A stretch of DNA of 18,080 nucleotides from Candidatus Hermodarchaeota archaeon (GCA_048885535.1 JBHLLO010000062.1:1-18080); one strand, 5' to 3'. Shown: positions 352 through 18,080, counted from the first letter of the stretch. Numbers and translations: made by a program. The notes: generated by a model from the letters alone, not told the origin.

Positions 352-2187
352 TTAACTTCCAAATAGTATTTCATCCCAAGGTTGACGATACAATCCTGCT
401 CGTTGGCGTTTTTGATCAAAAACATGTCCCATCATTCCAATACTTCGACCTAAGACAAATAGTCCATTTAACGCCTCACTATATATCACATCCTCGATTT
501 CCTCTGCTGTAAAATCTAAATTCTCGAGTAAATCAAGGAAACAAATTCCTATACATCCATCGACATTCAAGATTAAATTATTTCTCTTAGCTGTGGTTAA
601 TTTTTCTACTTCTAACGCAAAGTCAAGATGAGGGTGATTATTAAAGTTTTTAAACACAAAATCTTTTAACAATGAAACTCTTACATCAGGATTTTGAACG
701 GATTTAATCCTATGACCTATTCCGGGAATATTTATTTGTACTGTATTTTTCATGTAATCAACAAACTCATGGGGATTCATTTGTTTTTGTACGGCTTCCC
801 TTATATATTTTGCAGCATCAGATATGGCTCCTCCAAATCGAGGTCCAATTGTTAAAATCCCACTAGCGACAGCTGACATGAGATCCTTGCCAGCTCGAGC
901 TGTAATAATGGCATTATGAGCACCAGAGACTGCTGGACCATGATCAGCAGTCAACTTTATAACAATCTCAATGAACTGCTGTGCAAATTCAGGTAATTCT
1001 CTCTTAAACCAGAGTAATCCAATCACATAGCCAATTGATTTGTTCTCTTCAATAATTTTATCAAGGCCAACTCCCGCAAAAGTTGGAACGTCACCTCGAT
1101 CGTCTGAGATTGTCACTACTACATCTGAGGATCGTCTCACTAATCCCATCCTTATAGCTTCATTATAATCCATTGGTACTTTAGGTGGTTCAACTTCTTT
1201 TATGGGTTCAATTTTTCCTTCCTGCACTAACTTTTCAAAAGTTTCTTTTATTAACTTATCAAAATCTTCATACGATTCTGGAACAAGAGCTCCCATCTTT
1301 TTAAGTGCTTGGTTTTTAGCTTCAGCAGTTTCTTTATCACTGCCAGCCATAGCGCCTGCGTGGCCAAATTGGAGATCTTGTGGGAGTATTTTTGCCGCAG
1401 TACCGGTCACCCATATAACAAGCGGCTTTTTTATCTTCCCATTCTTCAATGCATCAACAATCTCATATTCTTCTGTCCCGCCAATTTCACCTAAACAGAC
1501 TAGCATTTTTATTTTCGGATTTGCTTCATATCGTAGAAGGTGATCGATCAATCGTGATCCTGGATATCGATCTCCCCCGATTGCAATTGATTCATAAATG
1601 CCGTCTGTATTTTGAGCAATCATAAAATTCATTTCATTGCTTAACCCACCAGATTTGGATACAAATCCTACTGAACCTGGGCGAAATAACTTTGATAGAA
1701 TAATATTTTCTAGCGTTCCGGCAGTGTTCCCAATTTTGAATGCACCGGCTTTAATTCCACCTACGGTTGCTGGGCCAATAATCACCTTCTTCCGTTCCTT
1801 AGCAATTTTGTTCAACAATTGACTCTGTCTTTCCGGGACACCTTCCGCTATTATTGTTACAACGCGAATCGAATTTGATTCAAGTGATTCTTTACTGATT
1901 TCGTATGCGGATCGAAAAGAGGCAAAATTTATCATAACATCCGCCGTAGGATGCTTTTTAATTGCCATGTTAAGTGTTTTATAAACAGGAATAACAATTT
2001 CTTTACTACCCCAAAAAGCTTTATGATAAGCCACAGCTGCTTCTTGAGTAGGTTGAATCATAGCAGCAACGCTTGGTATTTTCCGTCTACAAACATAATC
2101 AAAATCTAACATCCTTTGAACAGGAGCAGCTTGAAGTCCATAGATTATTGCTTGCGAATTTTCATCAAATAACTCATAACTTTCCAC
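352..2187 (-). CDS. aclA: ATP-citrate lyase alpha subunit (CoA-binding + phospho-His + citryl-CoA lyase domains)
   Basis: Succinyl-CoA-synthetase-alpha-like motifs IIGPATVGG, SKSGG and IGGDRYPG; catalytic phospho-His in QFGHAGA; C-terminal citrate-synthase-like domain with DHGPAVSGAHN, GIGHRIKS..NPD.RV and LILNVDG. The GTG start directly abuts the aclB TAA and has a GGTGAG RBS. Confidence 0.96.
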   Translation of the reverse strand: MESYELFDENSQAIIYGLQAAPVQRMLDFDYVCRRKIPSVAAMIQPTQEAAVAYHKAFWGSKEIVIPVYKTLNMAIKKHPTADVMINFASFRSAYEISKESLESNSIRVVTIIAEGVPERQSQLLNKIAKERKKVIIGPATVGGIKAGAFKIGNTAGTLENIILSKLFRPGSVGFVSKSGGLSNEMNFMIAQNTDGIYESIAIGGDRYPGSRLIDHLLRYEANPKIKMLVCLGEIGGTEEYEIVDALKNGKIKKPLVIWVTGTAAKILPQDLQFGHAGAMAGSDKETAEAKNQALKKMGALVPESYEDFDKLIKETFEKLVQEGKIEPIKEVEPPKVPMDYNEAIRMGLVRRSSDVVVTISDDRGDVPTFAGVGLDKIIEENKSIGYVIGLLWFKRELPEFAQQFIEIVIKLTADHGPAVSGAHNAIITARAGKDLMSAVASGILTIGPRFGGAISDAAKYIREAVQKQMNPHEFVDYMKNTVQINIPGIGHRIKSVQNPDVRVSLLKDFVFKNFNNHPHLDFALEVEKLTTAKRNNLILNVDGCIGICFLDLLENLDFTAEEIEDVIYSEALNGLFVLGRSIGMMGHVFDQKRQRAGLYRQPWDEILFGS

Positions 2188-3480
2188 TTATTTCTCACCT
2201 TTCATTTTCTCAATCATTCGAGATACAGGACGAGTCATACTGCTATAACGATCATAAATTTCAATAGGGATCCCGGTCTCGACTCCCACTTGTTTCATTA
2301 ACTCTAATCCCTGTTTTTCATTTGGTCCTCCTCTTCGAACTAGAATTTTTACATTCGCTTTCTTCAGTTTATCCACTGATTTCTTTATTGCGTTTACTAT
2401 TCCCCCGAAAGTTGCCTTTACATCAGTAAAGTTTGCAATTCCCCCTCCAATAATTAAATATTTTTCTTTACCCTCAGGATCTGGATATTCTGTAATGAGA
2501 TCAATTAAGGTTTGAGCATAGATTTCAGTATGCTCCTGGGATGGATTTCCTGAATATTCTCCATAATTTCCTAATTCATCTGAGAATCCGAGATCTGCAA
2601 TAGTATCTGTATATATCACTGAGGCTCCTCCACCAGCTACCATGGTCCATACATGCCCCTCTCGATTTAAAATTGTTAATTTAAGCGAAGCACCCGTTTT
2701 TTCATCAAGATCTTTAATTTTAATTTCTTCTGGACTCATGACTTGACCAAATCCCGCAGGGAACTCAATAGGATTACTTGGATTACCCCAAGTATCGGTA
2801 TGTAAAAATACAGCCGTATCATCTAGCCGTGCTTTCACATCTAATGGAACTATTCTCTTTTCTTTTGTTATCGCAAAAGGATTAATTTCTAAAAAAGCAA
2901 AATCTTGGTTGACAAATACTTGATAAACTCCTTTTATAAAAGGAATAATCACATTTTTGAGTTCTCCAAGTTGAGGAATTTTATTATCTAAATCAATCTT
3001 ATTGACATCAGTTCCGACAGGGATAGGGATATGAATAACCTTTTCCCAATTCTCCTCAACAAAGATACCCCCTTCGAAACTAAAATGGATTACATCATAA
3101 TCCCTTTCAGTAGTTATGGAAACGTAATATTCTTTTTCATGGGGGATAAATGGTTCAACTAATAAGCGTTTTAATTCTCCACGCACGTTTCCGATTTCAC
3201 AAACCTTATTTAAGTTGTTATAACAAAATTCCTTCATTTCGTCACAATTAGCATCTAATAAGATTAGGTTTGCTTTTCCCCGCTTCCCAAATAATTGATC
3301 TGGTTTTACTACAACTTTGTCTGTCATCAACCATGGGTTTTCAGTAATTGCCTTCTCTATATCTGTGTCACAATCGATTATAACCAATTTATTATGATAG
3401 TTAAATTCTGGATAATACTTCGGCAGCTGAGTTGCTAGAAGTTTTTTAGCGTCATATTCATAAATATTTTTTTGAGCCAC
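2188..3480 (-). CDS. aclB: ATP-citrate lyase beta subunit (ATP-grasp + citrate-binding domain)
   Basis: ACL-specific motifs KPDQLFGKRGK, FLEINP, SLKLTILN, WTMVAGGGASVIY, NYGEYSG.P, GGGIANFTDV and RRGGPN. GTG start with AGGAG RBS; adjacent to aclA. Confidence 0.96.
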   Translation of the reverse strand: MAQKNIYEYDAKKLLATQLPKYYPEFNYHNKLVIIDCDTDIEKAITENPWLMTDKVVVKPDQLFGKRGKANLILLDANCDEMKEFCYNNLNKVCEIGNVRGELKRLLVEPFIPHEKEYYVSITTERDYDVIHFSFEGGIFVEENWEKVIHIPIPVGTDVNKIDLDNKIPQLGELKNVIIPFIKGVYQVFVNQDFAFLEINPFAITKEKRIVPLDVKARLDDTAVFLHTDTWGNPSNPIEFPAGFGQVMSPEEIKIKDLDEKTGASLKLTILNREGHVWTMVAGGGASVIYTDTIADLGFSDELGNYGEYSGNPSQEHTEIYAQTLIDLITEYPDPEGKEKYLIIGGGIANFTDVKATFGGIVNAIKKSVDKLKKANVKILVRRGGPNEKQGLELMKQVGVETGIPIEIYDRYSSMTRPVSRMIEKMKGEK

Positions 3481-3543
3481 TTTTTTCTTTCTCCTAAATT
3501 TTAAGCATTATATTATGAAATATACTAATATGTGTAGAGTTAG

Positions 3544-3581
3544 TTTTTATAAAAATTTTTCCCACATCTCTTATATGGGAA
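3544..3581 (-). promoter_or_regulatory. Putative aclBA promoter: TATA box (3546-3553) with an upstream imperfect inverted repeat (3559-3581)
   Basis: On the minus strand GGGAAAAAT precedes TTTTATAAAAA. TTCCCACAT-N5-ATATGGGAA (8/9 complementary) lies immediately upstream. Confidence 0.45.
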
Positions 3582-3730
3582 GAAGTTCCCTTTTCATTGT
3601 AGAAAGTGTAAAACGCGTTTAAAATTTTAAAGATTTGAATAAAAAGAAAATAAAAGTTGGCTCAAAATAGTTTTTTGTAGAAAATAATAAATTTATTTAT
3701 AAGATTTTATGTCTAATATTAATGAGATAC

Positions 3731-4321
3731 TCACTTTCTTACAATATAATCTATTATACATGTACGTTCAGTATTATAGTACTTTCCTTTTAAGATATGT
3801 TTTTTCTCCTTATAAAGGATCTCAAATTTATCAAAAAACATATCTGGTTCATCATCATCATAATAACTATGCAGGTATTCTTCGTTTCCACGTTTATTAA
3901 TTACTTCGTTTTCGTTGAACCAAATATCATCTTTTGAGAGAAAGTTGAGATAACATAAGCCTCCTTTAGTCAATACACGGTATATTTCATTAATAGCTTG
4001 AGTTGTGTCATTTTTGCTTAGGTGAACCATAGAAAGGTAAGAGTATACATAACCAAAAAAGTTAGAGTCAAAAGGTATATTCCTCATATCTCCTTTAATT
4101 AAATTCAATTTTATATCATTTATTTTGCAAAACTCTTCTGTTTTCTTTATCTGTTCCTCAGAGATATCAATACCATATGCTTCAAAACCGTTTTCATAGA
4201 AAAAGGCAAGTTTAGGATTGGAACCTCCAGCACCACAATCCAATATTCTTTTAATAACAGGATTTGACTGAATAAACCTTAGAAAAACGTATAACGAGGA
4301 CGGATAGAATTTTTTAATCAT
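3731..4321 (-). CDS. Class I SAM-dependent methyltransferase
   Basis: Motif I ILDCGAGG, YGIDIS, GDMRNIPF...FGYVYS and EIYRVLTKGG. TTTATAAA at -22 to -29 suggests a leaderless mRNA. Confidence 0.9.
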   Translation of the reverse strand: MIKKFYPSSLYVFLRFIQSNPVIKRILDCGAGGSNPKLAFFYENGFEAYGIDISEEQIKKTEEFCKINDIKLNLIKGDMRNIPFDSNFFGYVYSYLSMVHLSKNDTTQAINEIYRVLTKGGLCYLNFLSKDDIWFNENEVINKRGNEEYLHSYYDDDEPDMFFDKFEILYKEKKHILKGKYYNTERTCIIDYIVRK

Positions 4322-4342
4322 TTTTAAAGAAATTTTGGGTGC

Positions 4343-4350
4343 TTTATAAA
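4343..4350 (-). promoter_or_regulatory. TATA box at leaderless spacing for the methyltransferase (within the divergent MTase/fumC intergenic region)
   Basis: TTTATAAA lies 22-29 nt upstream of ATG 4321, the canonical archaeal TATA-to-TSS distance. Confidence 0.45.
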
Positions 4351-4419
4351 ATTTGACTCGTATAAACTTTTTTTATGATTTCCTTCCTAATTACATTATT
4401 AGAAATTAAATTAAGTTAT

Positions 4420-5814
4420 GTGAGTAATTTGAATTTTCGAGTTGAAAAAGATGTTTTAGGTGAATTAGAAGTACCTATTGACGTGTATTGGGGTATTAAT
4501 ACTCAAAGAGCAATTCTAAATTTTCAAATTAGCGGAAAAACACTCCCCTCAATATTTATATTATCTTTAGCTGAATTAAAAAAAGCGTGTTTAATGGCGA
4601 TTATAGATTTAAAACTAATAGAACATAAGAAAGCTGATGCAATTCTTAAAGCATTAGATGAAATGCTAAATCAAAATAAATATTTGGATCAATTCCCAAT
4701 AGATGTGTTTCAAACGGGGAGTGGAACTCAAACTAATATGAATATGAATGAAGTGTTAGCAAATCGTGCTAATGAGATATTAGGTTATCCTTTAGGCAAA
4801 AAATCTCCAGTACATCCAAATGATGATGTTAATAAATGTCAATCATCTAATGATGTCATCCCTTCTGCTATGCATATTTCTACAATTCATATGATTCAAG
4901 ACAAACTTATTCCTTCCTTAGAAGATTTGAATAAAAACCTAGATATTAAGATAAAGGAGTTCAAAAACATAATAAAAGTAGGAAGAACTCATCTCCAAGA
5001 TGCTGTCCCAATTCCTTTATCCCTTGAATTTGAAGTATATAGGAAACAATTTGAAATTGCTCTCCAAAGATTAATCTATATGATCAATGAATTACTTTTT
5101 ATTCCCCTCGGAGGTACTGCTGTGGGTACTGGATTGAATGCTCATGAAAATTTTCCTAATTTAGCTGTTCAGCATCTTTCTAAAATTACAGGATTTAGGT
5201 TTAAGAATAATCCAGTAAAAGCTGAGGGTATTGCCTCACATAATACCATCACAACTACGAGTAGTATTCTCCGATCATTAGCCTTATCGTTATTGAAGAT
5301 GGCTAATGATATACGGTGGATGGGTAGCGGTCCCCGCGCAGGACTGTTAGAGTTGAGTTTACCTCAAAATGAACCAGGTTCTTCTATTATGCCTGGAAAA
5401 GTTAACCCCACTCAATCAGAAGCCCTTATCCAAGTATGCTTGCAAGTTATTGGAAATGATTTGACAATATCATTCACAGAGGGTTATGGAAGCATCTTGG
5501 ATTTAAATGTTTGCAAACCTTTAATGATTTACAATTTAATTGAATCAGTAGATATACTTAGTAATGCAATAAATTCTTTTATAAAACATTGTCTGATTAA
5601 AATTGAAGCAAATGAAAACCAAATTAATTCACAGTTAGAAAGAATGCTCATGGTAGTTACTAAGCTCACACCAATCTTGGGATATGATCAGTGCTCAACT
5701 ATAGCTCTGAAGGCATATAAAGAAGGGAAAACAATAAAACAAACTATTAAGGAGATGGGAATTAAGATTGAAGGGGATTTAGATGAATTACTAGATCCAA
5801 AAAAGATGATATAA
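4420..5814 (+). CDS. fumC: Fumarate hydratase class II
   Basis: YWGINTQRA, FQTGSGTQTNMNMNEV, HPNDDVNKCQSSND, KVGRTHLQDA, LGGTAVGTGLN and the signature GSSIMPGKVNPTQSEA. The track start is 4375, but the in-frame GTG at 4420 (VSNLNFRVEKD) matches the usual FumC N-terminus better. Aspartase is the less likely alternative. Confidence 0.9.
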   Translation: MSNLNFRVEKDVLGELEVPIDVYWGINTQRAILNFQISGKTLPSIFILSLAELKKACLMAIIDLKLIEHKKADAILKALDEMLNQNKYLDQFPIDVFQTGSGTQTNMNMNEVLANRANEILGYPLGKKSPVHPNDDVNKCQSSNDVIPSAMHISTIHMIQDKLIPSLEDLNKNLDIKIKEFKNIIKVGRTHLQDAVPIPLSLEFEVYRKQFEIALQRLIYMINELLFIPLGGTAVGTGLNAHENFPNLAVQHLSKITGFRFKNNPVKAEGIASHNTITTTSSILRSLALSLLKMANDIRWMGSGPRAGLLELSLPQNEPGSSIMPGKVNPTQSEALIQVCLQVIGNDLTISFTEGYGSILDLNVCKPLMIYNLIESVDILSNAINSFIKHCLIKIEANENQINSQLERMLMVVTKLTPILGYDQCSTIALKAYKEGKTIKQTIKEMGIKIEGDLDELLDPKKMI

Positions 5815-7132: not shown

Positions 7133-8194
7133 TCAATCTTTGATGACCTCTGGAGGTAAGTGAATCTCAACTTGACAGTAATCATCTCCTTTGAGAAGTG
7201 ATTTTAGTACCTTTATTTTTACTGGTTTCTCAAGTATTCCTTCCCATTGTTGGCGATACCATCCTGTTCCACAATTACAAAAAGTTGGAGATATCCCTTT
7301 ATCTAAGTTCTCATTTATAAACATGCAATGACAGTAGTTTTTCTTTTTTTCCTCAAGAGTTTTTGCTTTATCATGACCTTTTTGGTTTACAGGTACTTTA
7401 GAAATATATAACTTATTTCCTTTTCTCATTGGTTTTTCGTACCAAGCATTATCTTTATGCATCTCCTTTATCACTGCATCAACATCATCAGTATTTTGAT
7501 ATATTTCTTTCATATAAGCAATGCGTTTCGGTGAGAAGTCATGTGCACAACAAGAAACTATTTCATATTTTTGATCGTCATCAGTAACTTGATCTAAACG
7601 ATCGAGCATATCTTTAAGCCATTGAATTCGATCCTTATAAGAAGATTCAATTGTAAAGAATTTTTCTCTATCCTTCATTATTTTTCCTCTTGCTTCTATT
7701 CCTAAAACTTGATCAATACTTTTTTCTAATCTTTTATCCCAACGATGCAAATTACATTGTATTTCTATTCGATTCTCCTTAGGATTTTCTTGATTATATT
7801 TATGATAAACTAATCTTAACCATGCCGTACCTAAAACTACATGGTCTTGTCTATATCTAAGTATTTTTTGATAACTTTCTGTTAAGGTATCATTTGAGTT
7901 TGTATGCATGATTGATAAGACTTCAACACTATCAAGATATTTTGTGTTTATGCCTTTGATGTTTTTCCCTTCTTTAAGTGGAATACAAATGTCAATATCT
8001 TTTCCACCATCCGAATAAACCCCATAATCTATAACCGCTATTGCTGGACCTGAATTATTTCTTTTTATCTTTTCATATAATTCATCTATCTTAGCTGGAA
8101 TATCTGAAATCTCACCTCGAAAATTAACAAAACCTACAAATTGCCTGTCAATTATCTTATGCTCAATCCCTAAATCTTTTAGTGTCATTAACAA
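7133..8194 (-). CDS. GyrI-like small-molecule-binding domain fused to a Cys-rich C-terminal domain (DUF6144/V4R-like)
   Basis: The N-terminal ~150 aa has a GyrI/BmrR-effector pattern (GPAIA..., DIDICIP, VLSIMH...L...Y, IEIQ). The C-terminus has CCAH, YCHC, FCNCGTGW and KPVKIKVLKSLLKGDDYC. No HTH is visible. The start is TTG 8194 or ATG 8188. Confidence 0.7.
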   Translation of the reverse strand: MLMTLKDLGIEHKIIDRQFVGFVNFRGEISDIPAKIDELYEKIKRNNSGPAIAVIDYGVYSDGGKDIDICIPLKEGKNIKGINTKYLDSVEVLSIMHTNSNDTLTESYQKILRYRQDHVVLGTAWLRLVYHKYNQENPKENRIEIQCNLHRWDKRLEKSIDQVLGIEARGKIMKDREKFFTIESSYKDRIQWLKDMLDRLDQVTDDDQKYEIVSCCAHDFSPKRIAYMKEIYQNTDDVDAVIKEMHKDNAWYEKPMRKGNKLYISKVPVNQKGHDKAKTLEEKKKNYCHCMFINENLDKGISPTFCNCGTGWYRQQWEGILEKPVKIKVLKSLLKGDDYCQVEIHLPPEVIKD

Positions 8195-10778: not shown

Positions 10779-12707
10779 TTATTTAGCATGTCTTTGTTTG
10801 ATTAGCGTTAATTTTCCGCCAGCTTTTAATTCTTCCAGATCAGATTTACTGAGTGAATGATTTAAACCTATTTCAATATGTTTTGTCAAGTTTTTCAGTT
10901 TTACTTTACCAGTGTCTAATGTAGTTAAATCTATCTCAAAATTATCCCCTTGATCAATCTTACCATAATCATCTTTATTCTCAAATGTTAACGGAACAAT
11001 TCCAAAATTGACAAGATTTGCTAAATGAATACGCGCAAAAGATTTAACAATTACTGCTTTTACACCTAAATATTTGGGAGCAATTGCAGCGTGTTCTCTG
11101 CTTGAACCTTGACCATAATTTTCTCCTCCAATAATAAAACCTCCATTTACTTGTTTAGCTCTCTCTGGAAAGGATTGATCGACAACATTAAACACATACT
11201 TGCTTATCTCAGGAATATTACTACGTAAAGGAAGTATTTGGGATCCTGCTGGCATAATATGGTCAGTCGTAATATCATCCTCGACTTTTAAGAGGACTTC
11301 GCCTTCCAATTTATCGGGAATTGGATTAAATTCAGGCAAGGGTTTTATATTCGGACCTCGAATGATTTCGACTCCCCTTGCTTTTTCTGGAGGTAATGGA
11401 GGAATTATCATGTTATCATTTACTAAGAACTTTTTGGGCATCTCAATCTTAGGCATCTTTCCAAATTTTCGAGGATCAGTGACCCTTCCTTCTATGGCCG
11501 CCATAGATGCCACTTCTGGGCTTACTAAATATACACTAGCGCTCTTTGTACCTGATCTTCCAAGAAAATTCCTGTTAAAAGTTCTTAATGAAATAGCGTC
11601 ACTTTTTGGAGCAAGTCCCATCCCGATACAAGGTCCACATGTATTTTCAAGAATCCTAGCACCTGCTCTGATAAAATAAGCCATTTCACCAGAGTTTATT
11701 AAATGATCAACAACTTGTCTTGACCCTGGAGAAACTGTAAGACTCAAATTTTCATTTATAGTTTTATCTTTTAACATATTTGCAGCAATTTTAAGATCTC
11801 TTAATGAACTGTTAGTACAAGAGCCAATACAAACCTGATCTACCTTTAACCCTTCAATTTCTTTAATAGTTTTCACATTCCCAGGACTATGAGGCTCCGC
11901 TACTAGGGGTTCAAGAGTACTTAAATCAATCTCAATTGTATCATCATAAATAGCATCTAGATCTGCCTCTAAAGAAATCCATTGGTCCCCTCTTTCTTGA
12001 GCTTCAAGGAATTCTTTAGTAATTTCATCAGAAGGAAATATTGAAGTAGTTGCACCAGTTTCAGTTCCCATATTTGTAATCGTCCCCCGTTCTGGAACAG
12101 ATAAAGTTTTTACTCCAGGTCCAGAATATTCTAAGACTTTATTAACCCCTCCTTTTACACCAATTCTCCGTAGAACTTCTAATATCACATCTTTAGCTGA
12201 TACAAAATCAGATAATTTACCAGTTAAATATACCTTCACAATTTTTGGCATCTTTAGACTAAATGGCTCTCCCGCCATCGCTGCCGCGACATCTAGGCCC
12301 CCTGCTCCAATAGCAATCATTCCTACACCCCCTCCAGTTGGAGTGTGACTATCCGAACCTAATAATGTTTTACCTGGACGAGCAAATCTTTCTAGATGAA
12401 CTTGATGACAAATTCCATTTCCTGGTCGTGATAAATAAATACCATATTTGGCAGCTATACTTTGTAAATATCTATGATCATCAGGATTTTTATAATCTTC
12501 TTGAAGAGTGTTATGGTCAATATAACTGACAGAAAGCTCAGTTTGAACACGTGGAACGCCCATAGCTTCAAATTGTAGGTAAGCCATAGTCCCAGTTGCG
12601 TCTTGCGTAAGGGTTTGGTCAATTTTAATTGAAATTTCTGTTTCCTTCTGTAAGGATCCTTTTACTAAGTGTTTTTCTAAAATTTTTTCAGTTAGAGTTT
12701 TTCCCAT
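10779..12707 (-). CDS. acn: Aconitate hydratase (short, ~640 aa, C-terminal swivel domain type)
   Basis: QDATG, DHN, GNGICHQVH and DSHT motifs; [4Fe-4S] ligands in IGSCTNS and CGPCIG; FNRNF.GR, ITTDHI.PAG and GQGSSREHAA. The probable start is ATG 12707 (MGKTLTEKIL, AGGTTGA RBS) rather than 12734. Confidence 0.93.
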   Translation of the reverse strand: MGKTLTEKILEKHLVKGSLQKETEISIKIDQTLTQDATGTMAYLQFEAMGVPRVQTELSVSYIDHNTLQEDYKNPDDHRYLQSIAAKYGIYLSRPGNGICHQVHLERFARPGKTLLGSDSHTPTGGGVGMIAIGAGGLDVAAAMAGEPFSLKMPKIVKVYLTGKLSDFVSAKDVILEVLRRIGVKGGVNKVLEYSGPGVKTLSVPERGTITNMGTETGATTSIFPSDEITKEFLEAQERGDQWISLEADLDAIYDDTIEIDLSTLEPLVAEPHSPGNVKTIKEIEGLKVDQVCIGSCTNSSLRDLKIAANMLKDKTINENLSLTVSPGSRQVVDHLINSGEMAYFIRAGARILENTCGPCIGMGLAPKSDAISLRTFNRNFLGRSGTKSASVYLVSPEVASMAAIEGRVTDPRKFGKMPKIEMPKKFLVNDNMIIPPLPPEKARGVEIIRGPNIKPLPEFNPIPDKLEGEVLLKVEDDITTDHIMPAGSQILPLRSNIPEISKYVFNVVDQSFPERAKQVNGGFIIGGENYGQGSSREHAAIAPKYLGVKAVIVKSFARIHLANLVNFGIVPLTFENKDDYGKIDQGDNFEIDLTTLDTGKVKLKNLTKHIEIGLNHSLSKSDLEELKAGGKLTLIKQRHAK

Positions 12708-12992
12708 TAAATTCAACCTTTTTAGGCTTGACATTATTCAAATTTGAAAATTTAGTAAAAATAATGAAACCCATTATATTAAATTAGTTAAATACAAGAA
12801 CAACAAAAACACATGAGTTTCCCATTTACTTCCCCTTAGTTTTAAATATCCATAAATACATTTTTCTGGATTCACAAAAACTTTTCACGATAATAGACTC
12901 CCTTTAAGGAAAGAAAAAACCTTTCTATGACGTAAGTATTAAATATTCACTGATCAATATTGTTAATGTAAAAAAAATAAAAGCATTCAAGG

Positions 12993-14144
12993 ATGACAAA
13001 AAAAAAGAAAGTATTATCTTATACTGTTATATCAGTTATACTTGTCTTCATTCTCCTTATAATAATTGATAGTCTATTTCATGAACTTATTGGGAATTGG
13101 TGGGAAGGTATCCACAATTTTCTTCTTTTTACTGGAGATCTTTTCACTTTTATTTTCTATTACAGTTTATCAACTTTTTATTTCTGGAATTTAATTATAC
13201 TCCTTATTTTAGTTGTAATTTTTAGTATAAGTTACAATATTATTAGAAAAAGGCGTGTTGGAGGCACCATTTTAAGTATAATGAGTGTTATTGGGTGGTT
13301 AATCCAATTTGAATTAATTATTATTTGGGGATTTTTTGGGCTTATTAGCAACCCTGATTGGCCAATTCAGTGGAAATTAATCCTCCTAGGTTTGTCTATT
13401 CCATTAGTATTTCTATTTTTTTTTGTCCTAAGCATTTTAAGTGACTGCATATCCTTTTGGTTAGACATCATAAAAGAAAGACATGAATATTCACGCCTTA
13501 GTTATCAAATTGAGAAAAAAAATAAAGTAAAGATGATTCATATTAATACAGATGCAACTAAATTGAATACTATTTGGAGCGCAGCCATTTATCTATTAAT
13601 TGATGAAATTCTTAAAAAGGAAGGTGATTCCAGAGCTATTTCTCGATTTATTCGGAGTATTATTACTAATATCTTTTTTGAAATTGTAACTCATTTTAAT
13701 TTTTGGCCTCGATTTAAAAATGTGATTTTTCGATTTGTAGGGATAAAAATTGGAGAGGATTGTGTGATTTCCCAATATACAAAGGTTGATGCACTACTTC
13801 CAGATTTAATAACATTTGAGGATCATAGCGCTATTGGAGTATCCAGCAATTTAATAACCCATACATTTCGGGATCGAGGTGAAGTTCGAGCATTTATATA
13901 CGGTCCTATCAGAATATGCAAATATGCTCGTATTGCCTCAAATGTAACTATTATGCCCGGAGTGACTATTGGTGAGGGGGCAGTTGTTGCTGCTGGTTCT
14001 TTAGTTAGCAAAGATGTGGGTCCATATACTATGGTTGGAGGAGTTCCAGCAAAAAAGATTAAAGAAATTGATCCCAAAACCTACCGCTCTCGAATTGAAA
14101 AGGAAAATGTACTACAGAAAAGACGACTCAAGATATTAGATTAA
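12993..14144 (+). CDS. Membrane-anchored left-handed beta-helix (hexapeptide repeat) acyltransferase
   Basis: The N-terminal ~160 aa has 4-5 hydrophobic segments. The C-terminal domain has GIKIGEDCVI, LITHTF (putative catalytic His) and IMPGVTIGEGAVVAAGSLVSKDV...VGGVPAKKIK. Confidence 0.88.
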   Translation: MTKKKKVLSYTVISVILVFILLIIIDSLFHELIGNWWEGIHNFLLFTGDLFTFIFYYSLSTFYFWNLIILLILVVIFSISYNIIRKRRVGGTILSIMSVIGWLIQFELIIIWGFFGLISNPDWPIQWKLILLGLSIPLVFLFFFVLSILSDCISFWLDIIKERHEYSRLSYQIEKKNKVKMIHINTDATKLNTIWSAAIYLLIDEILKKEGDSRAISRFIRSIITNIFFEIVTHFNFWPRFKNVIFRFVGIKIGEDCVISQYTKVDALLPDLITFEDHSAIGVSSNLITHTFRDRGEVRAFIYGPIRICKYARIASNVTIMPGVTIGEGAVVAAGSLVSKDVGPYTMVGGVPAKKIKEIDPKTYRSRIEKENVLQKRRLKILD

Positions 14145-14158
14145 GAAGGGGGTTATGG

Positions 14159-15685
14159 TTGGGAATTTTTGAACTTTTAGGAGGTGGTGGGGCTCGTATA
14201 CTTAGCTATTATAGTAAAAAATCGTTAAAGAATCCTCTAGAAACCCAGCGACAGATATTAGGAGAGATAATAAAGCGTAATAAATCCACTCTGTTTGGAA
14301 AGAAGCATAAATTTAACGATATCCGAAGTATAAAACAATTTCAGGCTTTTTGTAAACCCCATTCATATGAATATTTTCAACCATATATTAATGCATATAT
14401 TTCAGGAAACTATAATGCCTTGTTTAATAGTAATCTTTTGTTTTTTGCTCAAACAACAGGAACGACTGGTACACCAAAAATATTTCCTGTAGTATATAAT
14501 ACCATCAGAAACTATAATCTTGGTGTGATTAGAACTGTCTGCCACTATATTTCAGAAGATACAAGAGAAAATTCTAAAATTATCAAGGGAAAATGGTTAT
14601 ATTTACCTGCCCCACCTATTCTTCGCTATATTTCTGGGATCCCTGTGGGGTACATAACCGGTCAATTAATGTTACCAATCGGGCTTCAGTTATGGCGTTA
14701 TTTATTAACATATAAAATATTTACACCTTTTCATTTAATGCACATCAAAAATCTTGAAAAAAAGTTTCAGATACTAACTAAAGAACTAATTTCTAAAAAT
14801 ATAACGATGGTAGTAGGTACAACTTCTGTAGTGGTTAACTTATTAGAATATATTGCAAAATATTCTAATATTCAATCAATAAATGATTTGTTCCCTAATC
14901 TTCAAGTTGCCATACTCTCTGGAGTTTCTCCAAAATTTTATGAAACCCGTTTAAAGCGAGTAACTAATACTAATTTTACTTATCGAGAAATGTATGCAGC
15001 AACGGAAGGTATGCTAGCAATTCAAATATCTAAACTTCCGTATCTTACTCCTCTCTATAACTATGCCTTTTTTGAATTTATCCCTCTTAAAAATACATCA
15101 GAACGGTTAATAATTAATCAACTCAAAAGAGGGGAAGAGTATTCCATAATCATCACTTCAAATAACGGATTATATGCGTATGAAATAGGAGATGTTATTA
15201 AAGTTGTTTCAGAAGACCCTTTAACTTTTATATTTTCATTTCGGAAAAATGTAATTGATCTAACTGGTGAGAAGTTGACACCTTTTCAAATACTTTCAGC
15301 TTTTAAAATTGCGAATGAACAAAACCAGTGTAACACTGTAGATTTCTGTGCGATTGGTGTATACAAACCTAAACCACATTATAAATTTTTAGTTGAATTC
15401 ATTTCAAAAAAAGAACCAAATTCTATCTCTGAATATTTATCTTCTCTTGATCATACTTTGGAACAACTAAATGTAGGATATCAATATAATCGTTTTAATA
15501 AGGGGACGCTTGCCTCTCCAGAATTATGGATTTTGAAGAAAGATACTTTTCACTCTTTAGAAAATTTAAAGTTACTCGATGGAATACAAGCAAATCAGAT
15601 AAAAACATCTCATCTCTCGAGAGATACTACTTTATTAGAGCTTTTTGAGGGCTATATTACTGAAAGAGCCTTCTTAGAATCATAA
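14159..15685 (+). CDS. GH3-family acyl-adenylate-forming (acyl acid-amido synthetase-like) ligase
   Basis: Typical GH3 N-terminus (P.ETQ..IL..I..RN..T.FGK.H.F, YEYF.PYI); motif I TTGTTGTPK; motif II YAATEG; FFEFIP; motif III GLYAYEIGD; GEK. TTG start with AAGGGGG RBS, 14 bp after the previous stop. Confidence 0.9.
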   Translation: MGIFELLGGGGARILSYYSKKSLKNPLETQRQILGEIIKRNKSTLFGKKHKFNDIRSIKQFQAFCKPHSYEYFQPYINAYISGNYNALFNSNLLFFAQTTGTTGTPKIFPVVYNTIRNYNLGVIRTVCHYISEDTRENSKIIKGKWLYLPAPPILRYISGIPVGYITGQLMLPIGLQLWRYLLTYKIFTPFHLMHIKNLEKKFQILTKELISKNITMVVGTTSVVVNLLEYIAKYSNIQSINDLFPNLQVAILSGVSPKFYETRLKRVTNTNFTYREMYAATEGMLAIQISKLPYLTPLYNYAFFEFIPLKNTSERLIINQLKRGEEYSIIITSNNGLYAYEIGDVIKVVSEDPLTFIFSFRKNVIDLTGEKLTPFQILSAFKIANEQNQCNTVDFCAIGVYKPKPHYKFLVEFISKKEPNSISEYLSSLDHTLEQLNVGYQYNRFNKGTLASPELWILKKDTFHSLENLKLLDGIQANQIKTSHLSRDTTLLELFEGYITERAFLES

Positions 15686-15728
15686 AATTCATTTTTCACA
15701 ATAAAAAATCTTTTTTCATTGAGGTTAC

Positions 15729-15742
15729 CTTTTTATAAAAAG
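15729..15742 (+). promoter_or_regulatory. Possible internal TATA box within the palindrome CTTTTTATAAAAAG upstream of the dehydratase-family genes
   Basis: A perfect 14-bp palindrome containing TTTATAAA (15732-15739) in the 121-bp gap, preceded by a T6 tract at 15711-15716. Confidence 0.35.
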
Positions 15743-15806
15743 TCAGTAATAATTATTAATGTCGATGTATTAAGAATTGTTTAAAGCAAATTAAGAAGGA
15801 CGATAT

Positions 15807-16943
15807 ATGTTTGAAAAACCTGATTTATATGAAATATACGATAACTTAATTAAATTTAAAGAACAGGGCAAAAATATCATTGGAGTTATTCCGCATACAA
15901 TTGTACCTGACGAATTGATTTTTGCTTCAAACTCTATTCCTCTTCATTTTTGCTTAGGAGGGACAGAAGATCAAATGGATACAGGTCATACTTATCTCTC
16001 TCAAACAACTTGTGGGTTTCAGCGCGTAAATTTAGGTATATTTGAAGAGAGAGAAGGTATATCCTATGAAATTTATAATTTAATAGATTTTGTAATAGCA
16101 GGTACCTTTTGTGCTGGTGTTCAAAATACAGGAATGTATCTTGAAAATTATTTTGGAAAAAAGCAATATAGGCTTATAATTCCCTATTGTAATAATAAAA
16201 ATCCCTTCAATTATTTCTTAAAGGAATTATTTCAATTGAAAATATTTCTTGAGAAAAAAAATAATACAAATATAACAAAAGAAAAATTGATTGAATCAAT
16301 TGATATTTATAATAAACTTAAAACTCTTTATCAAGAATTGGATAAATTTAGATATAATGATAAACCTATTATTTCTCTTTATGAAATCCAGAATTTAATT
16401 CATCATCTCTATCTAAATGGTCCTCTTTTAAATTCAGAAGCAGTCAATAAATTTCTTACTTTGATATCTAATAATTCTTTTGTTGAAAAGAAGGGAATTC
16501 GAATATTTTTAACAGGGAATGGTGTACTTTATGAAGATGAATTAGTACCTCTCATCGAAAAATGTGATTGCATTATTGTTGGTGATGACATTTCTACGGG
16601 TTTTGAATTTTATTCCTCATTGGTTCAGGATTTTACTTCGGATCCGTTATTTGCTTTAGCAGAGCGATACTTAAAACGAAATTTATCAGGTAGAATGATC
16701 CCTGAATCATACAGAATCAAAAAAATTATTGAATTAGGCAAGGAAAGAAAAATTAAAGGAATCATTAATAATTGTCTAAAATTTTGTGACTCCTATTCTA
16801 ATACTACTGACATCTTTAGAGACGAAATGAAAAAAAGAGGTATCCCTGTCCTAACTCTTGAACGTGATTTCTCCCAAAATTCCATTGGACAAATAACGAC
16901 GAGGATCGAAGCTTTTTTAGAAATTTTAAGAGGTGAAATTTAA
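15807..16943 (+). CDS. 2-hydroxyacyl-CoA dehydratase / benzoyl-CoA reductase B/C family subunit (HgdB/FldC/BcrC-like)
   Basis: KEQGKNIIG...VPDELIFA...P; cluster Cys in TTCG, TFCAG and KFCD; IRIFLTG, IVGDD..TG, LAERY and GIPVLTLERD....GQITTRIEAFLE. Confidence 0.9.
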   Translation: MFEKPDLYEIYDNLIKFKEQGKNIIGVIPHTIVPDELIFASNSIPLHFCLGGTEDQMDTGHTYLSQTTCGFQRVNLGIFEEREGISYEIYNLIDFVIAGTFCAGVQNTGMYLENYFGKKQYRLIIPYCNNKNPFNYFLKELFQLKIFLEKKNNTNITKEKLIESIDIYNKLKTLYQELDKFRYNDKPIISLYEIQNLIHHLYLNGPLLNSEAVNKFLTLISNNSFVEKKGIRIFLTGNGVLYEDELVPLIEKCDCIIVGDDISTGFEFYSSLVQDFTSDPLFALAERYLKRNLSGRMIPESYRIKKIIELGKERKIKGIINNCLKFCDSYSNTTDIFRDEMKKRGIPVLTLERDFSQNSIGQITTRIEAFLEILRGEI

Positions 16944-16944
16944 A

Positions 16945-18080
16945 ATGATGGTAAATCCAATTCAAGATTTTGCAATGCAATCAATCGCAGATATGGGTGT
17001 GCGATATATTAATGGACTTAACATGGTGAAATCCAGTAGAAAAAAAGGGAAAAAGATAATTGCTGGTTTTATGCCACCTATGGAAATATGTTTTGGTTCA
17101 GAGAAAGCAATACCCTTTTGGTTACCTAGATTCACTGAGTTTCCATTCCCAGGTATGATGCAAGGAATTTCAATAGTAAATAAACTTCATCAGATAACTA
17201 CTGCTGTAAAAGCATGGAACAAATTCCAGAGTTTTCTATCTAAAAGAAAGTCTTCAAATCTATCTGCAAATCTCACTGTTTTTACTAAACCATTCTTAAG
17301 TTTGAATAAGATTTCTGAAGAGGCCAATTACAACCCTGATTCCTGCATACAAATGCGTACCTGTTATGGTGCTTATTTGAAGTACCAACAATATTTTGAT
17401 TTGCTTATGGGGGGGTTTGACGCGAATAATTGTCTTTATTTCGCTAAATTATATGAACGAATCGGTAGAAAGAAACCATTATTTTATTTTCAAAAACCAT
17501 ATGGCGACAAGAACACTCCTCATGCTTTAGAGTTGGTTATCAGAGAATTGGAAGACTTTTTTCGAAAACTAGAAAATATTACAGATGAATCTATCGACTT
17601 TAAAAAAATGAAAGAAAAGATGAAACTTGTAAATAATATTAAAAAGATCGCGGCATTACTTCTAAATCGATATTACAGAAGAGGATATGTTCCACTTCAT
17701 TGGCCAGCAAGCTTACTAATTCATGGTGCATATGTGGATTATTTAAGTGATCTTAAATTTTTTCATGAAAAATTTCGACTGTTAGTCACGGAGATTGAAG
17801 CGAATATAAAAAAGGGAATAATAAGAAACTATAAAAAAGAGAATATTCCAAGGATCTTATTTGTTGGCAGCCCAGGCTTTGATCCTCTACTAGCTCAGGA
17901 AATTGAAAAACAAGGAGGTACATTACTCCTGCTGGATGTTTTCCCAAATGAACTACGCCACCAATTGATCGATTTAACTGGTGATTTCATCTTAAAGTAT
18001 GCTTATTACTTATTAGGAAAAACAAATTTTAAGAGAGGAATAGAGGATTCAATTGAATTTTGGGTGAAACAAGCAAAATT
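16945..18080 (+). CDS. Second, divergent 2-hydroxyacyl-CoA dehydratase-family subunit, partial (>=378 aa, runs off the window)
   Basis: Not in the ORF track. The frame is open from ATG 16945 (GAGGTGA RBS, 1 bp after the previous stop) to the window end: MMVNPIQDF...RKKGKKIIAGFMPPMEICF...PDSCIQMRTCYG...ANNCLYFAKLYE...RELEDFFRKLENIT...PRILFVGSP...IEKQGG. Confidence 0.8.
   Translation, partial: MMVNPIQDFAMQSIADMGVRYINGLNMVKSSRKKGKKIIAGFMPPMEICFGSEKAIPFWLPRFTEFPFPGMMQGISIVNKLHQITTAVKAWNKFQSFLSKRKSSNLSANLTVFTKPFLSLNKISEEANYNPDSCIQMRTCYGAYLKYQQYFDLLMGGFDANNCLYFAKLYERIGRKKPLFYFQKPYGDKNTPHALELVIRELEDFFRKLENITDESIDFKKMKEKMKLVNNIKKIAALLLNRYYRRGYVPLHWPASLLIHGAYVDYLSDLKFFHEKFRLLVTEIEANIKKGIIRNYKKENIPRILFVGSPGFDPLLAQEIEKQGGTLLLLDVFPNELRHQLIDLTGDFILKYAYYLLGKTNFKRGIEDSIEFWVKQAK

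What the first reader, a model, noticed from the sequence alone, without database searches (positions are those of the whole stretch)
12993..18080. Candidate undescribed pathway: membrane LbH acyltransferase + GH3 adenylating ligase + two radical-dehydratase/reductase-family subunits
Seen: four co-oriented genes with gaps of 14, 121 and 1 bp, divergent from aconitase. Established: GH3 enzymes adenylate carboxylates and form acyl-amino-acid amides in plants, while prokaryotic members are largely uncharacterised. LbH enzymes transfer acyl groups from CoA. HgdAB/BcrBC-family [4Fe-4S] proteins use ATP-driven electron transfer, and relatives (PlsA/PlsR, Ger) act on membrane lipids to make plasmalogen/ether bonds. 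Inference: the combination of activation, acyl transfer at the membrane and reductive or dehydrating tailoring could make a modified lipid or N-acyl/enoyl amide in an archaeon. I know of no described cluster with this composition. Caveat: a T6 tract and a TATA-like palindrome in the 121-bp gap could split it into two unrelated units.
Basis: partly seen in the sequence, partly recalled or inferred. Interest (0 to 1): 0.78.

Follow-up and report, generated by a model that had tools for sequence, protein, structure and literature searches.

The report
Asgard GH3 ligase–membrane acetyltransferase pair
The four genes are real, but they look like two separate units: a conserved, uncharacterised Asgard-archaeal pair (a membrane acetyltransferase and a plant-hormone-type GH3 amide ligase) and a neighbouring iron-sulfur enzyme pair that sits beside it only in a few close relatives.

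Summary
Four co-oriented genes lie at 12993-18078, and the last is cut by the contig end. The families were named correctly: a 4-TM hexapeptide (LbH) acetyltransferase, a GH3 amido synthetase, and two HGD-D subunits.

The proposed four-gene pathway is only weakly supported. LbH-GH3 is the conserved unit. LbH lies directly upstream of GH3 in 12 of 15 main-clade loci from several Asgard families. Full-length relatives of both proteins carry almost only Asgard names.

The HGD-D pair follows GH3 in 4 of 13 assessable loci, all within one shallow clade. One nested member of that clade (L097) lacks it. HGD-D orthologues stand alone in genomes with no GH3 match. A TATA-like box and a palindrome conserved in all four loci point to a separate promoter.

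My best reading is two modules. The first is an OlsH/OlsI-like amide-forming and acetylating step at the membrane, with substrate unknown. The second is a 2-hydroxyacyl-CoA-dehydratase/benzoyl-CoA-reductase-like heterodimer that would use an activator encoded elsewhere.

B12-radical-SAM genes are the more recurrent neighbours of these GH3 genes. This scan had already noted the GH3-LbH core on other Asgard DNA (e1-5393152).

The parts
12735..12992 (.). 258-nt divergent intergenic region between aconitase (-) and the LbH gene (+). It presumably holds the promoter of unit 1.
   Evidence: No promoter was tested here. This is inferred from the gene arrangement.
12993..14144 (+). Membrane-anchored hexapeptide (LbH) acetyltransferase, 383 aa. 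It has about 4 N-terminal TM helices (residues 7-150) with conserved polar residues, then a cytoplasmic maltose/galactoside-O-acetyltransferase-like domain.
   Evidence: Pfam Hexapep scores 36.1 bits against a cut-off of 27. The best NCBIfam match is heptaprenylglyceryl-phosphate O-acetyltransferase at 81.6 bits, below its 300-bit cut-off. Hydropathy peaks lie at 7-25, 54-84, 93-111 and 130-148. The AF2 model has pLDDT 83.5. Foldseek matches 3ECT, 3FTT, 3SRT and 1OCX at E 1e-10 to 1e-7 over about 170 C-terminal residues. Invariant residues in 30 relatives include F55, Y56, Y81, K128, D151 and H290.
14159..15685 (+). GH3-family acyl-acid amido synthetase (adenylating amide ligase), 508 aa. It has a TTG start 14 nt after the LbH stop, with GAAGGGGG upstream.
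   Evidence: Pfam GH3, GH3_M and GH3_C score 102, 57 and 68 bits, all above the 23.6-bit cut-off. The OlsH model scores 156.9 bits against a cut-off of 620. A family profile hits plant GH3.12, JAR1 and GH3.6 structures at E 1e-54 to 1e-45. Invariant residues across 34 sequences are G101, T102, K107, P110, A281, E283, Y341, D345, Q480 and K482. The start region was read.
15686..15806 (+). 121-nt gap. It holds T5 and T6 tracts, then a TATA-like box (TTTATAAA at 15732) and the palindrome TAATAATTATTA (15747-15758). This is the likely separate promoter and operator of the HGD-D pair.
   Evidence: The block is conserved in G000, G013, G257 and L098, while the upstream part of the gap differs in length (121, 167, 113 and 156 nt by ORF coordinates) and does not align well. 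The palindrome is unique in the window. The 14-mer ATAATTATTAATGT occurs only at this position, in loci from G000, G013 and G257 among the 112 loci held. Transcription was not measured.
15807..16943 (+). HGD-D family subunit ('HGDa', beta-like), 378 aa, with three invariant cysteines (C69, C102, C327).
   Evidence: Pfam HGD-D scores 218 bits. NCBIfam gives double-cubane reductase at 185 bits (cut-off 350), HadC at 104, BzdN at 67 and BcrC at 61. By sequence the PDB gives 7YYL/6ENO at E 5e-30, BzdN 8S02_B at 4e-17 and HadC 3O3M_B at 3e-14. The invariant cysteines come from 18 relatives.
16945..18078 (+). Second HGD-D subunit ('HGDb', alpha-like), 5' part only. It is cut by the contig end, and the full length is 446 aa in G013. 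It is translationally coupled to HGDa.
   Evidence: Pfam HGD-D scores 76.6 bits here and 121.8 bits for the full-length G013 copy. HadB matches weakly at 28 bits. The PDB gives 7YYL at 1.5e-8 and HadB 3O3M_A at 1.1e-5. The invariant cysteines are C138, C167 and C397 in 7 sequences. The junction was read.

Best explanation
The region holds two separable modules in an Asgard archaeon.

Module 1 (12993-15685) is a conserved two-gene unit restricted to Asgard archaea. The GH3 enzyme would adenylate a carboxylic acid with ATP and join it to an amine or amino acid as an amide. The partner is a trimer-type LbH acetyltransferase held in the membrane by four helices, with its catalytic domain in the cytoplasm. 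It would acetylate (or short-chain acylate) the substrate or product at the membrane face. This makes the pair a functional analogue of the bacterial OlsH/OlsI route to N-acyl-amino-acid lipids. The substrate is unknown. The conserved polar residues in the membrane domain suggest a membrane-embedded, amphiphilic molecule.

Module 2 (15807 to beyond 18078) is a heterodimer of the 2-hydroxyacyl-CoA dehydratase / benzoyl-CoA reductase / double-cubane superfamily. It has two three-cysteine [4Fe-4S] sites and probably its own promoter. It would depend on an HgdC-type ATPase encoded elsewhere in the genome.

The adjacency of the two modules arose once in a shallow lineage and is not required for either.

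Shown here: the families, the conservation of the pair, the distribution of each module, and the conserved promoter-like block. Inferred: the chemistry, the order of steps, the membrane substrate, and separate transcription.
For: Conservation of the LbH-GH3 pair:
- LbH lies directly upstream of GH3, on the same strand, in 12 of 15 main-clade GH3 loci. These are G000, G013, G257, L097, L098, G164, L101, L102, L103, G027, G029 and G166a.
- In L099 one opposite-strand gene lies between them.
- L100 and G163a show no LbH in the 0.5 and 1.1 kb available upstream (tblastn E<=1e-5).
- In two paralogue loci (G163b, G165a) the order is GH3 then LbH.
- 43 GH3 clusters reach 36% identity or more, and 45 LbH clusters reach 35% or more. 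Named members are labelled Hod-, Hel-, Prometh-, Loki- or Sigynarchaeota, apart from one 'Deferrimicrobium' label. After these clusters both lists drop sharply.

GH3 enzyme:
- The ATP and catalytic motif residues are invariant.
- A family profile hits plant GH3 structures at E 1e-54.
- OlsH/OlsI shows that a bacterial GH3 makes N-acyl ornithine from ATP and a fatty acid, and that it is encoded with its acyltransferase (PMC12493201: abstract and section 8 read; PMC12971839: passages read).

LbH enzyme:
- It has the maltose/galactoside-acetyltransferase fold.
- It has four TM helices.
- Five columns in the TM part are invariant.

Separability of the HGD pair:
- The HGD pair follows GH3 in 4 of 13 loci that have at least 1.5 kb of downstream sequence.
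- L097 is sister to L098 with 100/99 support, inside the four-gene clade (100/100), yet it goes straight from GH3 to the convergent radical-SAM genes.
- G169 and G168 (both 94% complete) carry HGDa homologues at 65% and 44% identity but have no PF03321 match at E<=0.001.
- G027 has the LbH-GH3 pair, but its best HGDa homologue is only 28% identical.
- Neighbours of the stand-alone HGD pairs vary: DNA methylase and Ras GTPase, enoyl-CoA hydratase twice, and a GH127 hydrolase.
- A TATA-like box and palindrome are conserved in the gap.

HGD pair chemistry and activator:
- Each HGD subunit has three invariant cysteines.
- Three HgdC-like ATPase genes lie elsewhere in G000. One is beside a paralogous HGD pair on C6.
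Against: Within family f1 the two modules co-occur exactly. At E<=1e-50 both are found in G013 and G257 and in none of the other 132 genomes searched. The adjacency has also survived down to 73% GH3 identity. Either point could reflect a functional link in that lineage. Cluster tables suggest further contigs that hold both modules, because the same longest-contig lengths (22848, 9631, 185845, 47503) appear. Adjacency on those contigs was not seen.

The T tracts are not above chance, and a conserved internal promoter does not exclude read-through transcription. No RNA data could be obtained.

The GH3 scores far below the OlsH cut-off (157 against 620 bits), so the acyl and amine substrates cannot be transferred from OlsH. 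The LbH fold family normally acetylates sugars or xenobiotics, not lipids.
Confidence: 0.6

Rival explanations
1. One reading: all four genes form one pathway. The GH3 activates an acid, the LbH transfers an acyl group at the membrane, and the HGD-D heterodimer reductively or dehydratively tailors the same lipid or enoyl amide.
For: The four genes are co-oriented and adjacent in G000, G013, G257 and L098. Within family f1 they are present or absent together: 2 of 134 other genomes for each module, and the same two genomes. Radical-chemistry enzymes recur beside these GH3 genes, including B12-radical-SAMs and a glycyl radical enzyme.
Against: All four loci belong to one shallow clade, and L097 inside it has lost the HGD pair. 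Nine other assessable loci have no HGD pair. The HGD pair stands alone in genomes that lack GH3. The gap holds a conserved promoter-like block. No activator ATPase, CoA ligase or CoA transferase lies in the cluster in any relative. Known HGD-D enzymes act on CoA thioesters, which a GH3 does not make. That last point rests on general knowledge, not on a call.
Confidence: 0.15
2. Module 1 decorates a surface glycan rather than a lipid. The GH3 would amidate a uronic-acid carboxylate with an amino acid, and the LbH enzyme would O-acetylate a sugar on a membrane-bound carrier.
For: The LbH domain also matches polysaccharide O-acetyltransferase models: WcaF at 53 bits, WbbJ at 43, and HpsU, EpsC and NeuD more weakly. 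It has the sugar acetyltransferase fold. In G027 a DegT-type aminotransferase lies in the same-strand gene run about 8 kb downstream of the pair.
Against: No glycosyltransferase, flippase or oligosaccharyltransferase gene was seen in any of the loci annotated. All these NCBIfam matches are far below their cut-offs.
Confidence: 0.12
3. Module 1 is a split, carrier-less analogue of Pls-type poly(amino acid) synthetases. The GH3 would adenylate an amino acid, and the membrane LbH trimer would form the amide bonds.
For: The LbH domain gives a weak match to the Pls/PosA terminal-domain model TIGR02353, at 34.9 bits and E 5.6e-9. Earlier notes of this scan describe other Asgard membrane LbH families as Pls-like. 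Those notes are unchecked leads.
Against: The match is far below the 423-bit cut-off and weaker than the acetyltransferase matches. The fold hits are acetyl-CoA enzymes. No thiolation domain is present. GH3 enzymes complete amide formation themselves (PMC12493201).
Confidence: 0.05

Closest known systems
OlsH/OlsI ornithine-lipid pathway of Singulisphaera acidiphila (PMC12493201)
   Same: A prokaryotic GH3-type, ATP-dependent amide ligase is encoded next to the acyltransferase that acts in the same pathway. The GH3 nucleotide-binding motifs are conserved.
   Different: The partner here is a 4-TM LbH acetyltransferase, not an alpha/beta-hydrolase. The GH3 scores 157 bits against the 620-bit OlsH cut-off and is 21-29% identical to its nearest non-Asgard-clade homologues. 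The host is an archaeon, whereas the papers state that aminolipids are absent from archaea. The substrates are unknown.
Plant GH3 acyl acid amido synthetases (GH3.12/PBS3 4EPM, JAR1 4EPL, GH3.6 7VKA)
   Same: The three-domain architecture is the same, and the family profile matches at E 1e-54 to 1e-45.
   Different: The protein is about 70-100 residues shorter. It is prokaryotic and paired with a membrane enzyme. No hormone substrate is expected.
Maltose/galactoside O-acetyltransferase-type hexapeptide enzymes and YvoF (heptaprenylglyceryl phosphate O-acetyltransferase, NF058585)
   Same: The C-terminal 170 residues share the fold (3ECT, 3SRT, 1OCX, 1KRU). YvoF is the best NCBIfam match at 81.6 bits.
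   Different: This protein has an added 4-TM N-terminal domain of about 165 residues with no detectable relatives outside Asgard. All matches are below their family cut-offs.
2-hydroxyacyl-CoA dehydratase HadBC/HgdAB, benzoyl-CoA reductase BzdNO/BcrBC, and the double-cubane cluster protein (6ENO)
   Same: Both subunits carry the HGD-D domain. The genes are an alpha/beta pair with translational coupling. Each subunit has three conserved cysteines.
   Different: Every equivalog cut-off is missed. Of the six cysteine positions I read as cysteine in the double-cubane chain in the alignment, only three are invariant in HGDa. No activator, CoA-transferase or fermentation genes lie in cis.

Membership tests
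GH3 acyl acid amido synthetase (Pfam PF03321/PF23571/PF23572) | All three GH3 domains score above the Pfam gathering cut-off. | tested here: met
   Scores are 102.1, 56.7 and 67.7 bits against a cut-off of 23.6.
GH3 acyl acid amido synthetase | Conserved nucleotide-binding and catalytic motifs: the (S/T)GT(S/T)xxxK loop, the YAxxE motif, the YxxGD motif and the C-terminal lysine. | tested here: met
   G101, T102, K107, P110, A281, E283, Y341, D345, Q480 and K482 are invariant in 34 sequences. They align to the plant motifs. The motif names are recalled, not taken from a call.
OlsH lyso-ornithine lipid synthetase (NF052613, equivalog) | Score at or above the curated cut-off of 620 bits. | tested here: not met
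   The score is 156.9 bits.
OlsH/OlsI-type pathway | An OlsI-like alpha/beta-hydrolase O-acyltransferase encoded with the GH3. | tested here: not met
   No alpha/beta-hydrolase was found among the annotated neighbours. An LbH enzyme takes the adjacent position.
Hexapeptide (LbH) acetyltransferase, maltose/galactoside type | Hexapeptide repeats above the Pfam cut-off, and a left-handed beta-helix fold like the solved members. | tested here: met
   Hexapep scores 36.1 bits against 27. Foldseek gives 3ECT at E 1.7e-10 with TM 0.69 by target.
Hexapeptide (LbH) acetyltransferase, maltose/galactoside type | Catalytic histidine in the loop of the helix. | tested here: inconclusive
   H290 is invariant in 30 relatives. 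Its equivalence to the catalytic histidine of solved enzymes was not checked residue by residue.
YvoF heptaprenylglyceryl phosphate O-acetyltransferase (NF058585) | Score at or above the 300-bit cut-off. | tested here: not met
   The score is 81.6 bits.
HAD/BCR catalytic heterodimer (HGD-D, PF06050) | Two different HGD-D subunits encoded side by side, each with cluster-binding cysteines. | tested here: met
   Pfam scores are 218.4 and 76.6 bits, and 121.8 for the full-length G013 copy. Each subunit has three invariant cysteines.
HAD/BCR systems | An HgdC/BcrAD-type ATP-dependent activator encoded with the catalytic subunits. | tested here: not met
   There is none in the window, in G013, G257 or L098, or beside the stand-alone pairs. 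Three PF01869 genes lie elsewhere in G000.
Double-cubane cluster protein (NF040772) | Score at or above 350 bits, and all cysteine ligands of the [8Fe-9S] cluster present. | tested here: not met
   The score is 184.9 bits. In the alignment to 7YYL, two cysteine positions of the solved chain are S and L in HGDa. Only C69, C102 and C327 are invariant. Which residues are the ligands is recalled, not taken from a call.
PlsA/PlsR or Ger lipid ether/plasmalogen enzymes | Sequence membership and fused activator domains. | not tested
   No such model appeared among the NCBIfam matches. No PlsA sequence was compared, and I do not know whether the library holds one.
Single four-gene operon | Gene order conserved beyond close relatives, and one transcript. 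| tested here: not met
   Gene order holds in 4 of 13 assessable loci, all in one clade, with one loss inside it. The transcript could not be tested, because no RNA holder was listed.

The most novel reading that the evidence does not exclude
The LbH-GH3 pair, together with the B12-radical-SAM enzymes that recur beside these GH3 genes, is an Asgard-specific pathway. It would make an acetylated, possibly methyl-branched, N-acyl amino acid or other amide-linked amphiphile in the archaeal membrane. That would be the first aminolipid-type biosynthetic route in archaea, a class of lipid currently stated to be absent from them.
Probability: 0.2. Interest if true: 0.75.

Novelty: new variant of a known kind. 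Interest (0 to 1): 0.45.

Why it matters
GH3 enzymes were long treated as plant hormone-conjugating enzymes. The first prokaryotic function, ornithine-lipid synthesis, was published only in 2025, and that work surveyed bacteria only (PMC12493201, section 8). Here a distinct GH3 clade is tied to a membrane acetyltransferase in several Asgard lineages, the archaeal group closest to eukaryotes, whose membrane chemistry is an open question. If the product is a membrane amide lipid, it would overturn the statement that aminolipids are absent from archaea. The pair is small and can be tested by heterologous expression. The negative result also matters: the iron-sulfur pair should not be annotated as part of this pathway on the strength of adjacency alone.

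Tried and rejected
- Complex prediction of LbH with GH3, using alignments A4 and A5, gave no verdict (score 0.00). I draw no conclusion from it.
- The sequencing-run search listed no RNA holder, so co-transcription could not be tested.
- Rfam found no family in the window at gathering thresholds.
- The ESM Atlas search of the LbH membrane part (residues 1-215) gave no usable feature hit. The only structural neighbour of note was another archaeal Hexapep cluster at TM 0.42.
- I looked for the rest of the locus in G000. The orthologous B12-radical-SAM and the 3' end of HGDb are not in the assembly. The best radical-SAM match is 33% identical, and the HGDb query matched only positions 2-382 on C62 plus paralogues.
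- I looked for the promoter-like block upstream of stand-alone HGD pairs. The 14-mer occurs only in G000, G013 and G257 loci, and the gapped pattern matched nothing (because its spacing was too strict). So I cannot show that the promoter travels with the pair.
- I rejected the T-tract 'terminator' as evidence on its own, because such tracts are common by chance.
- The sigma-70 promoter/terminator scanner was not used, since the organism is an archaeon.
- A special GH3 relationship with eukaryotes was considered but not tested, because no plant sequences could be brought into a tree.
- Supplementary files of the OlsH papers were not seen. They may list archaeal homologues.

Full report
**What is in the sequence.** The window is a whole 18,080-nt contig (G000:C62) of a 3.09-Mb, 91.6%-complete genome. 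The nearest named relatives are MAGs labelled Candidatus Hodarchaeota and Sigynarchaeum. Earlier notes of this scan call the genome Lokiarchaeia. It is therefore an Asgard archaeon.

The finding's region holds four + strand ORFs: 12993-14144, 14159-15685, 15807-16943 and 16933/16945-18078. The gaps are 14 nt, 121 nt and 1 nt. The last figure applies if the fourth gene starts at ATG 16945, and becomes an 11-nt overlap from GTG 16933. The fourth gene runs off the contig, with 382 of about 446 codons present. The block is divergent from an aconitase gene.

- The first gene is a Hexapep/LbH protein. Its best named match is heptaprenylglyceryl-phosphate O-acetyltransferase, at 81.6 bits against a 300-bit cut-off.
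- The second is a three-domain GH3. Its only NCBIfam match is the lyso-ornithine lipid synthetase OlsH, at 156.9 bits against a 620-bit cut-off.
- The third and fourth are HGD-D proteins. They sit nearest the double-cubane reductase, HadC/HadB, BzdN and BcrC models, all below their cut-offs.

**The LbH-GH3 pair is the conserved unit.** I collected GH3 loci from 40 relatives, 400 genomes of the phylum, the species-representative genome collection and metagenome contigs. I then located all four proteins in them by tblastn at E<=1e-5.
- In the main GH3 clade, LbH lies directly upstream on the same strand in 12 of 15 loci.
- In a thirteenth locus (L099) one opposite-strand URO-D-family gene lies between them.
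- Two loci (L100, G163a) show no LbH in the 0.5 and 1.1 kb available upstream.
- In two paralogue loci the order is GH3 then LbH.

These loci span four GTDB families (f1, f4, f5, f6) and GH3 identities from 87% down to 42%.

In the 5.8-billion-protein collection, 43 GH3 clusters share 36% identity or more, and 45 LbH clusters share 35% or more over most of their length. The named members are Hod-, Hel-, Prometh-, Loki- and Sigynarchaeota MAGs, plus one labelled Deferrimicrobium. GTDB places that genome in the same class as G000. After these clusters the GH3 list drops to 29% identity or less, and the LbH list drops to matches on the hexapeptide domain alone. Many of the two sets of clusters report the same longest contig, which suggests that they co-occur.

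The pair is patchy. GH3 is found at E<=1e-50 in 16 of 400 phylum genomes, and in only 2 of 134 other genomes of the window's family.

**What the pair looks like.** The GH3 keeps the invariant residues of the nucleotide-binding and catalytic motifs. A family profile hits plant GH3.12, JAR1 and GH3.6 structures at E 1e-54 to 1e-45.

The LbH protein has four hydrophobic helices between residues 7 and 150, with basic residues at the N-terminus and after helix 2. This places the C-terminal domain in the cytoplasm. That topology is an inference. Its AF2 model (pLDDT 83.5) matches maltose/galactoside O-acetyltransferases and related CoA-dependent enzymes over the last 170 residues or so (E 1.7e-10 and weaker). 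The membrane part has no detectable relatives. It does carry invariant or nearly invariant polar and aromatic residues (D26, H41, F55, Y56, Y81, K128, D151), so it is more than an anchor.

The only characterised prokaryotic GH3, OlsH, uses ATP and a free fatty acid to N-acylate ornithine, and it is encoded with the acyltransferase OlsI, which completes the lipid (PMC12493201, abstract and section 8 read; PMC12971839, passages read). By analogy I propose that the Asgard pair forms an amide between a membrane-associated carboxylate and an amine, and acetylates it at the membrane face. I put the probability of a lipid-like product at about 0.35-0.45. The substrates remain unknown.

**The HGD-D pair is separable.** It follows GH3 in only 4 of the 13 loci with at least 1.5 kb of downstream sequence: G000, G013, G257 and L098. 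In a maximum-likelihood GH3 tree these four, plus L097, form one clade with 100/100 support. L097 is sister to L098 (100/99), yet it runs from the GH3 stop straight into the convergent radical-SAM genes. So the pair was lost there while LbH-GH3 was kept.

Outside this clade, HGDa homologues of 37-65% identity lie on other contigs. Their neighbours vary: a DNA methylase and a Ras-like GTPase in G169, an enoyl-CoA hydratase in G164 and G163, and a GH127 hydrolase in G168. G169 and G168, both 94% complete, have no GH3-family match at all. Conversely, G027 has LbH-GH3 but only a 28%-identical HGDa paralogue.

**Evidence that speaks for a link.**
- Within family f1 the two modules are found in exactly the same genomes.
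- The adjacency has survived to 73% GH3 identity.
- Equal contig lengths in the cluster tables hint at four more contigs that carry both modules. Adjacency on those contigs was not seen.

**The 121-nt gap.** Its proximal 45 nt or so hold TTTATAAA and the palindrome TAATAATTATTA. This block is nearly invariant in all four four-gene loci. The distal part varies in length and does not align well. The palindrome is unique in the window, and its 14-mer occurs nowhere else in the 112 loci held. The position fits an archaeal TATA box with an operator just downstream, which is an inference. The T5 and T6 tracts after the GH3 stop are not informative, because such runs occur 5.5 times per kb here. No RNA run was listed, so transcription remains untested.

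**What the HGD-D pair is.** HGDa is closest by sequence to the double-cubane cluster protein (7YYL/6ENO, E 5e-30), then BzdN and HadC. HGDb matches the same proteins and HadB weakly. Each subunit keeps three invariant cysteines. Two further cysteine positions of the double-cubane protein are not conserved. It therefore resembles the two-cluster catalytic heterodimers of 2-hydroxyacyl-CoA dehydratases and class I benzoyl-CoA reductases. No activator ATPase is encoded beside it in any locus. G000 has three HgdC-like genes elsewhere, one beside a paralogous HGD pair on contig C6. Its substrate cannot be named. An enoyl-CoA hydratase lies near two of the homologues, which is a weak hint of acyl-CoA chemistry.

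**Other neighbours.** B12-binding radical-SAM genes recur beside these GH3 genes:
- In all 4 assessable loci of the f1 clade, where they are convergent and sit with a MiaB-like radical SAM.
- In 5 of 6 loci of the second GH3 clade.
- In 0 of 7 other main-clade loci.

One of them, in L097, is 68% identical to one in G165. This link is better supported than the HGD link and is worth its own study.

This scan had already described a twin-GH3 block with the same membrane acetyltransferase in another Asgard genome, and it reached the same 'core plus passengers' view (e1-5393152). I saw a locus of that type independently (G166).

**Literature.** I found no paper on archaeal GH3 ligases. My searches used the terms 'GH3' with 'Asgard', and 'GH3' with 'archaea' and 'acyl acid amido synthetase'. 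In the one 'GH3'-with-'Asgard' hit that I opened, the matches were glycoside-hydrolase family names such as GH36, GH38 and GH109. I judged the other listed papers from their titles only.

**Verdict.** The four-gene pathway is at best a lineage-specific association (probability about 0.15). The Asgard-specific LbH-GH3 pair is a genuine, uncharacterised variant of the GH3-plus-acyltransferase theme. Interest is moderate at 0.45.

Noticed in passing
L007:1284-7010; L097:3217-7677; L098:12169-14791; L061:2881-7685; L064:3523-5665; L066:8917-11207; L067:532-5642: B12-binding radical-SAM genes recur next to Asgard GH3 genes in two GH3 clades and several families. In the f1 clade they sit with a MiaB-like radical SAM. 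One in L097 is 68% identical to one in G165. They may be the true pathway partners of GH3/LbH.
   Followed up: partly
L062:8790-17840 (G166): Twin-GH3 block in the order GH3, PFL-like glycyl radical enzyme, 327-aa protein with no family, membrane LbH, GH3, SAM methyltransferase. CobN and ChlI/VWA chelatase genes lie divergently upstream. It is of the same kind as the earlier scan note e1-5393152.
   Followed up: partly
L008:4950-9355 and L103:9567-14267: In the Sigynarchaeum-type loci, the LbH-GH3 pair is preceded by a 560-aa VWA protein. It is followed by conserved 621-aa and 663-aa proteins. The two L008 copies have no Pfam family, and the L103 copies were matched by ORF length only.
   Followed up: no
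L074:2463-3779 and L099:5026-6435: A long coiled-coil protein (438 and 469 aa) directly follows GH3 in two loci of 62-63% identity. In L099 an AMP-binding acyl-CoA-synthetase-like gene comes next.
   Followed up: no
window 352-5814 and 10779-12734: Both ATP-citrate lyase subunits (352-2187 and 2188-3480, - strand), a class II fumarase (4375-5814) and an aconitase (10779-12734) lie on the same contig. This is a partial (reverse) TCA gene set in an Asgard archaeon.
   Followed up: no
window 7133-8194 (-) and L007:111-1166: A 353-aa protein with weak DUF6144 and GyrI-like matches lies upstream of the cluster in G000. A protein of similar length (351 aa) and the same weak DUF6144 match lies beyond the radical-SAM genes in G013. 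I did not compare the two sequences directly. If they are counterparts, this hints at a rearrangement between two genomes of the same genus.
   Followed up: no
G000:C6:14875-18192: A paralogous HGD-D pair lies with an adjacent HgdC-like activator, which makes a complete three-gene system. Two more tandem activator genes lie on C5:67454-69077, and none of the HGD-D matches found in G000 lies on that contig.
   Followed up: partly
L091:7429-7953 and 13176-13829; L093:15326-16309: Ras-family small GTPase genes flank the stand-alone HGD-D pairs in G169 and G168. One of them is fused to a glycine-cleavage H-protein-like domain.
   Followed up: no
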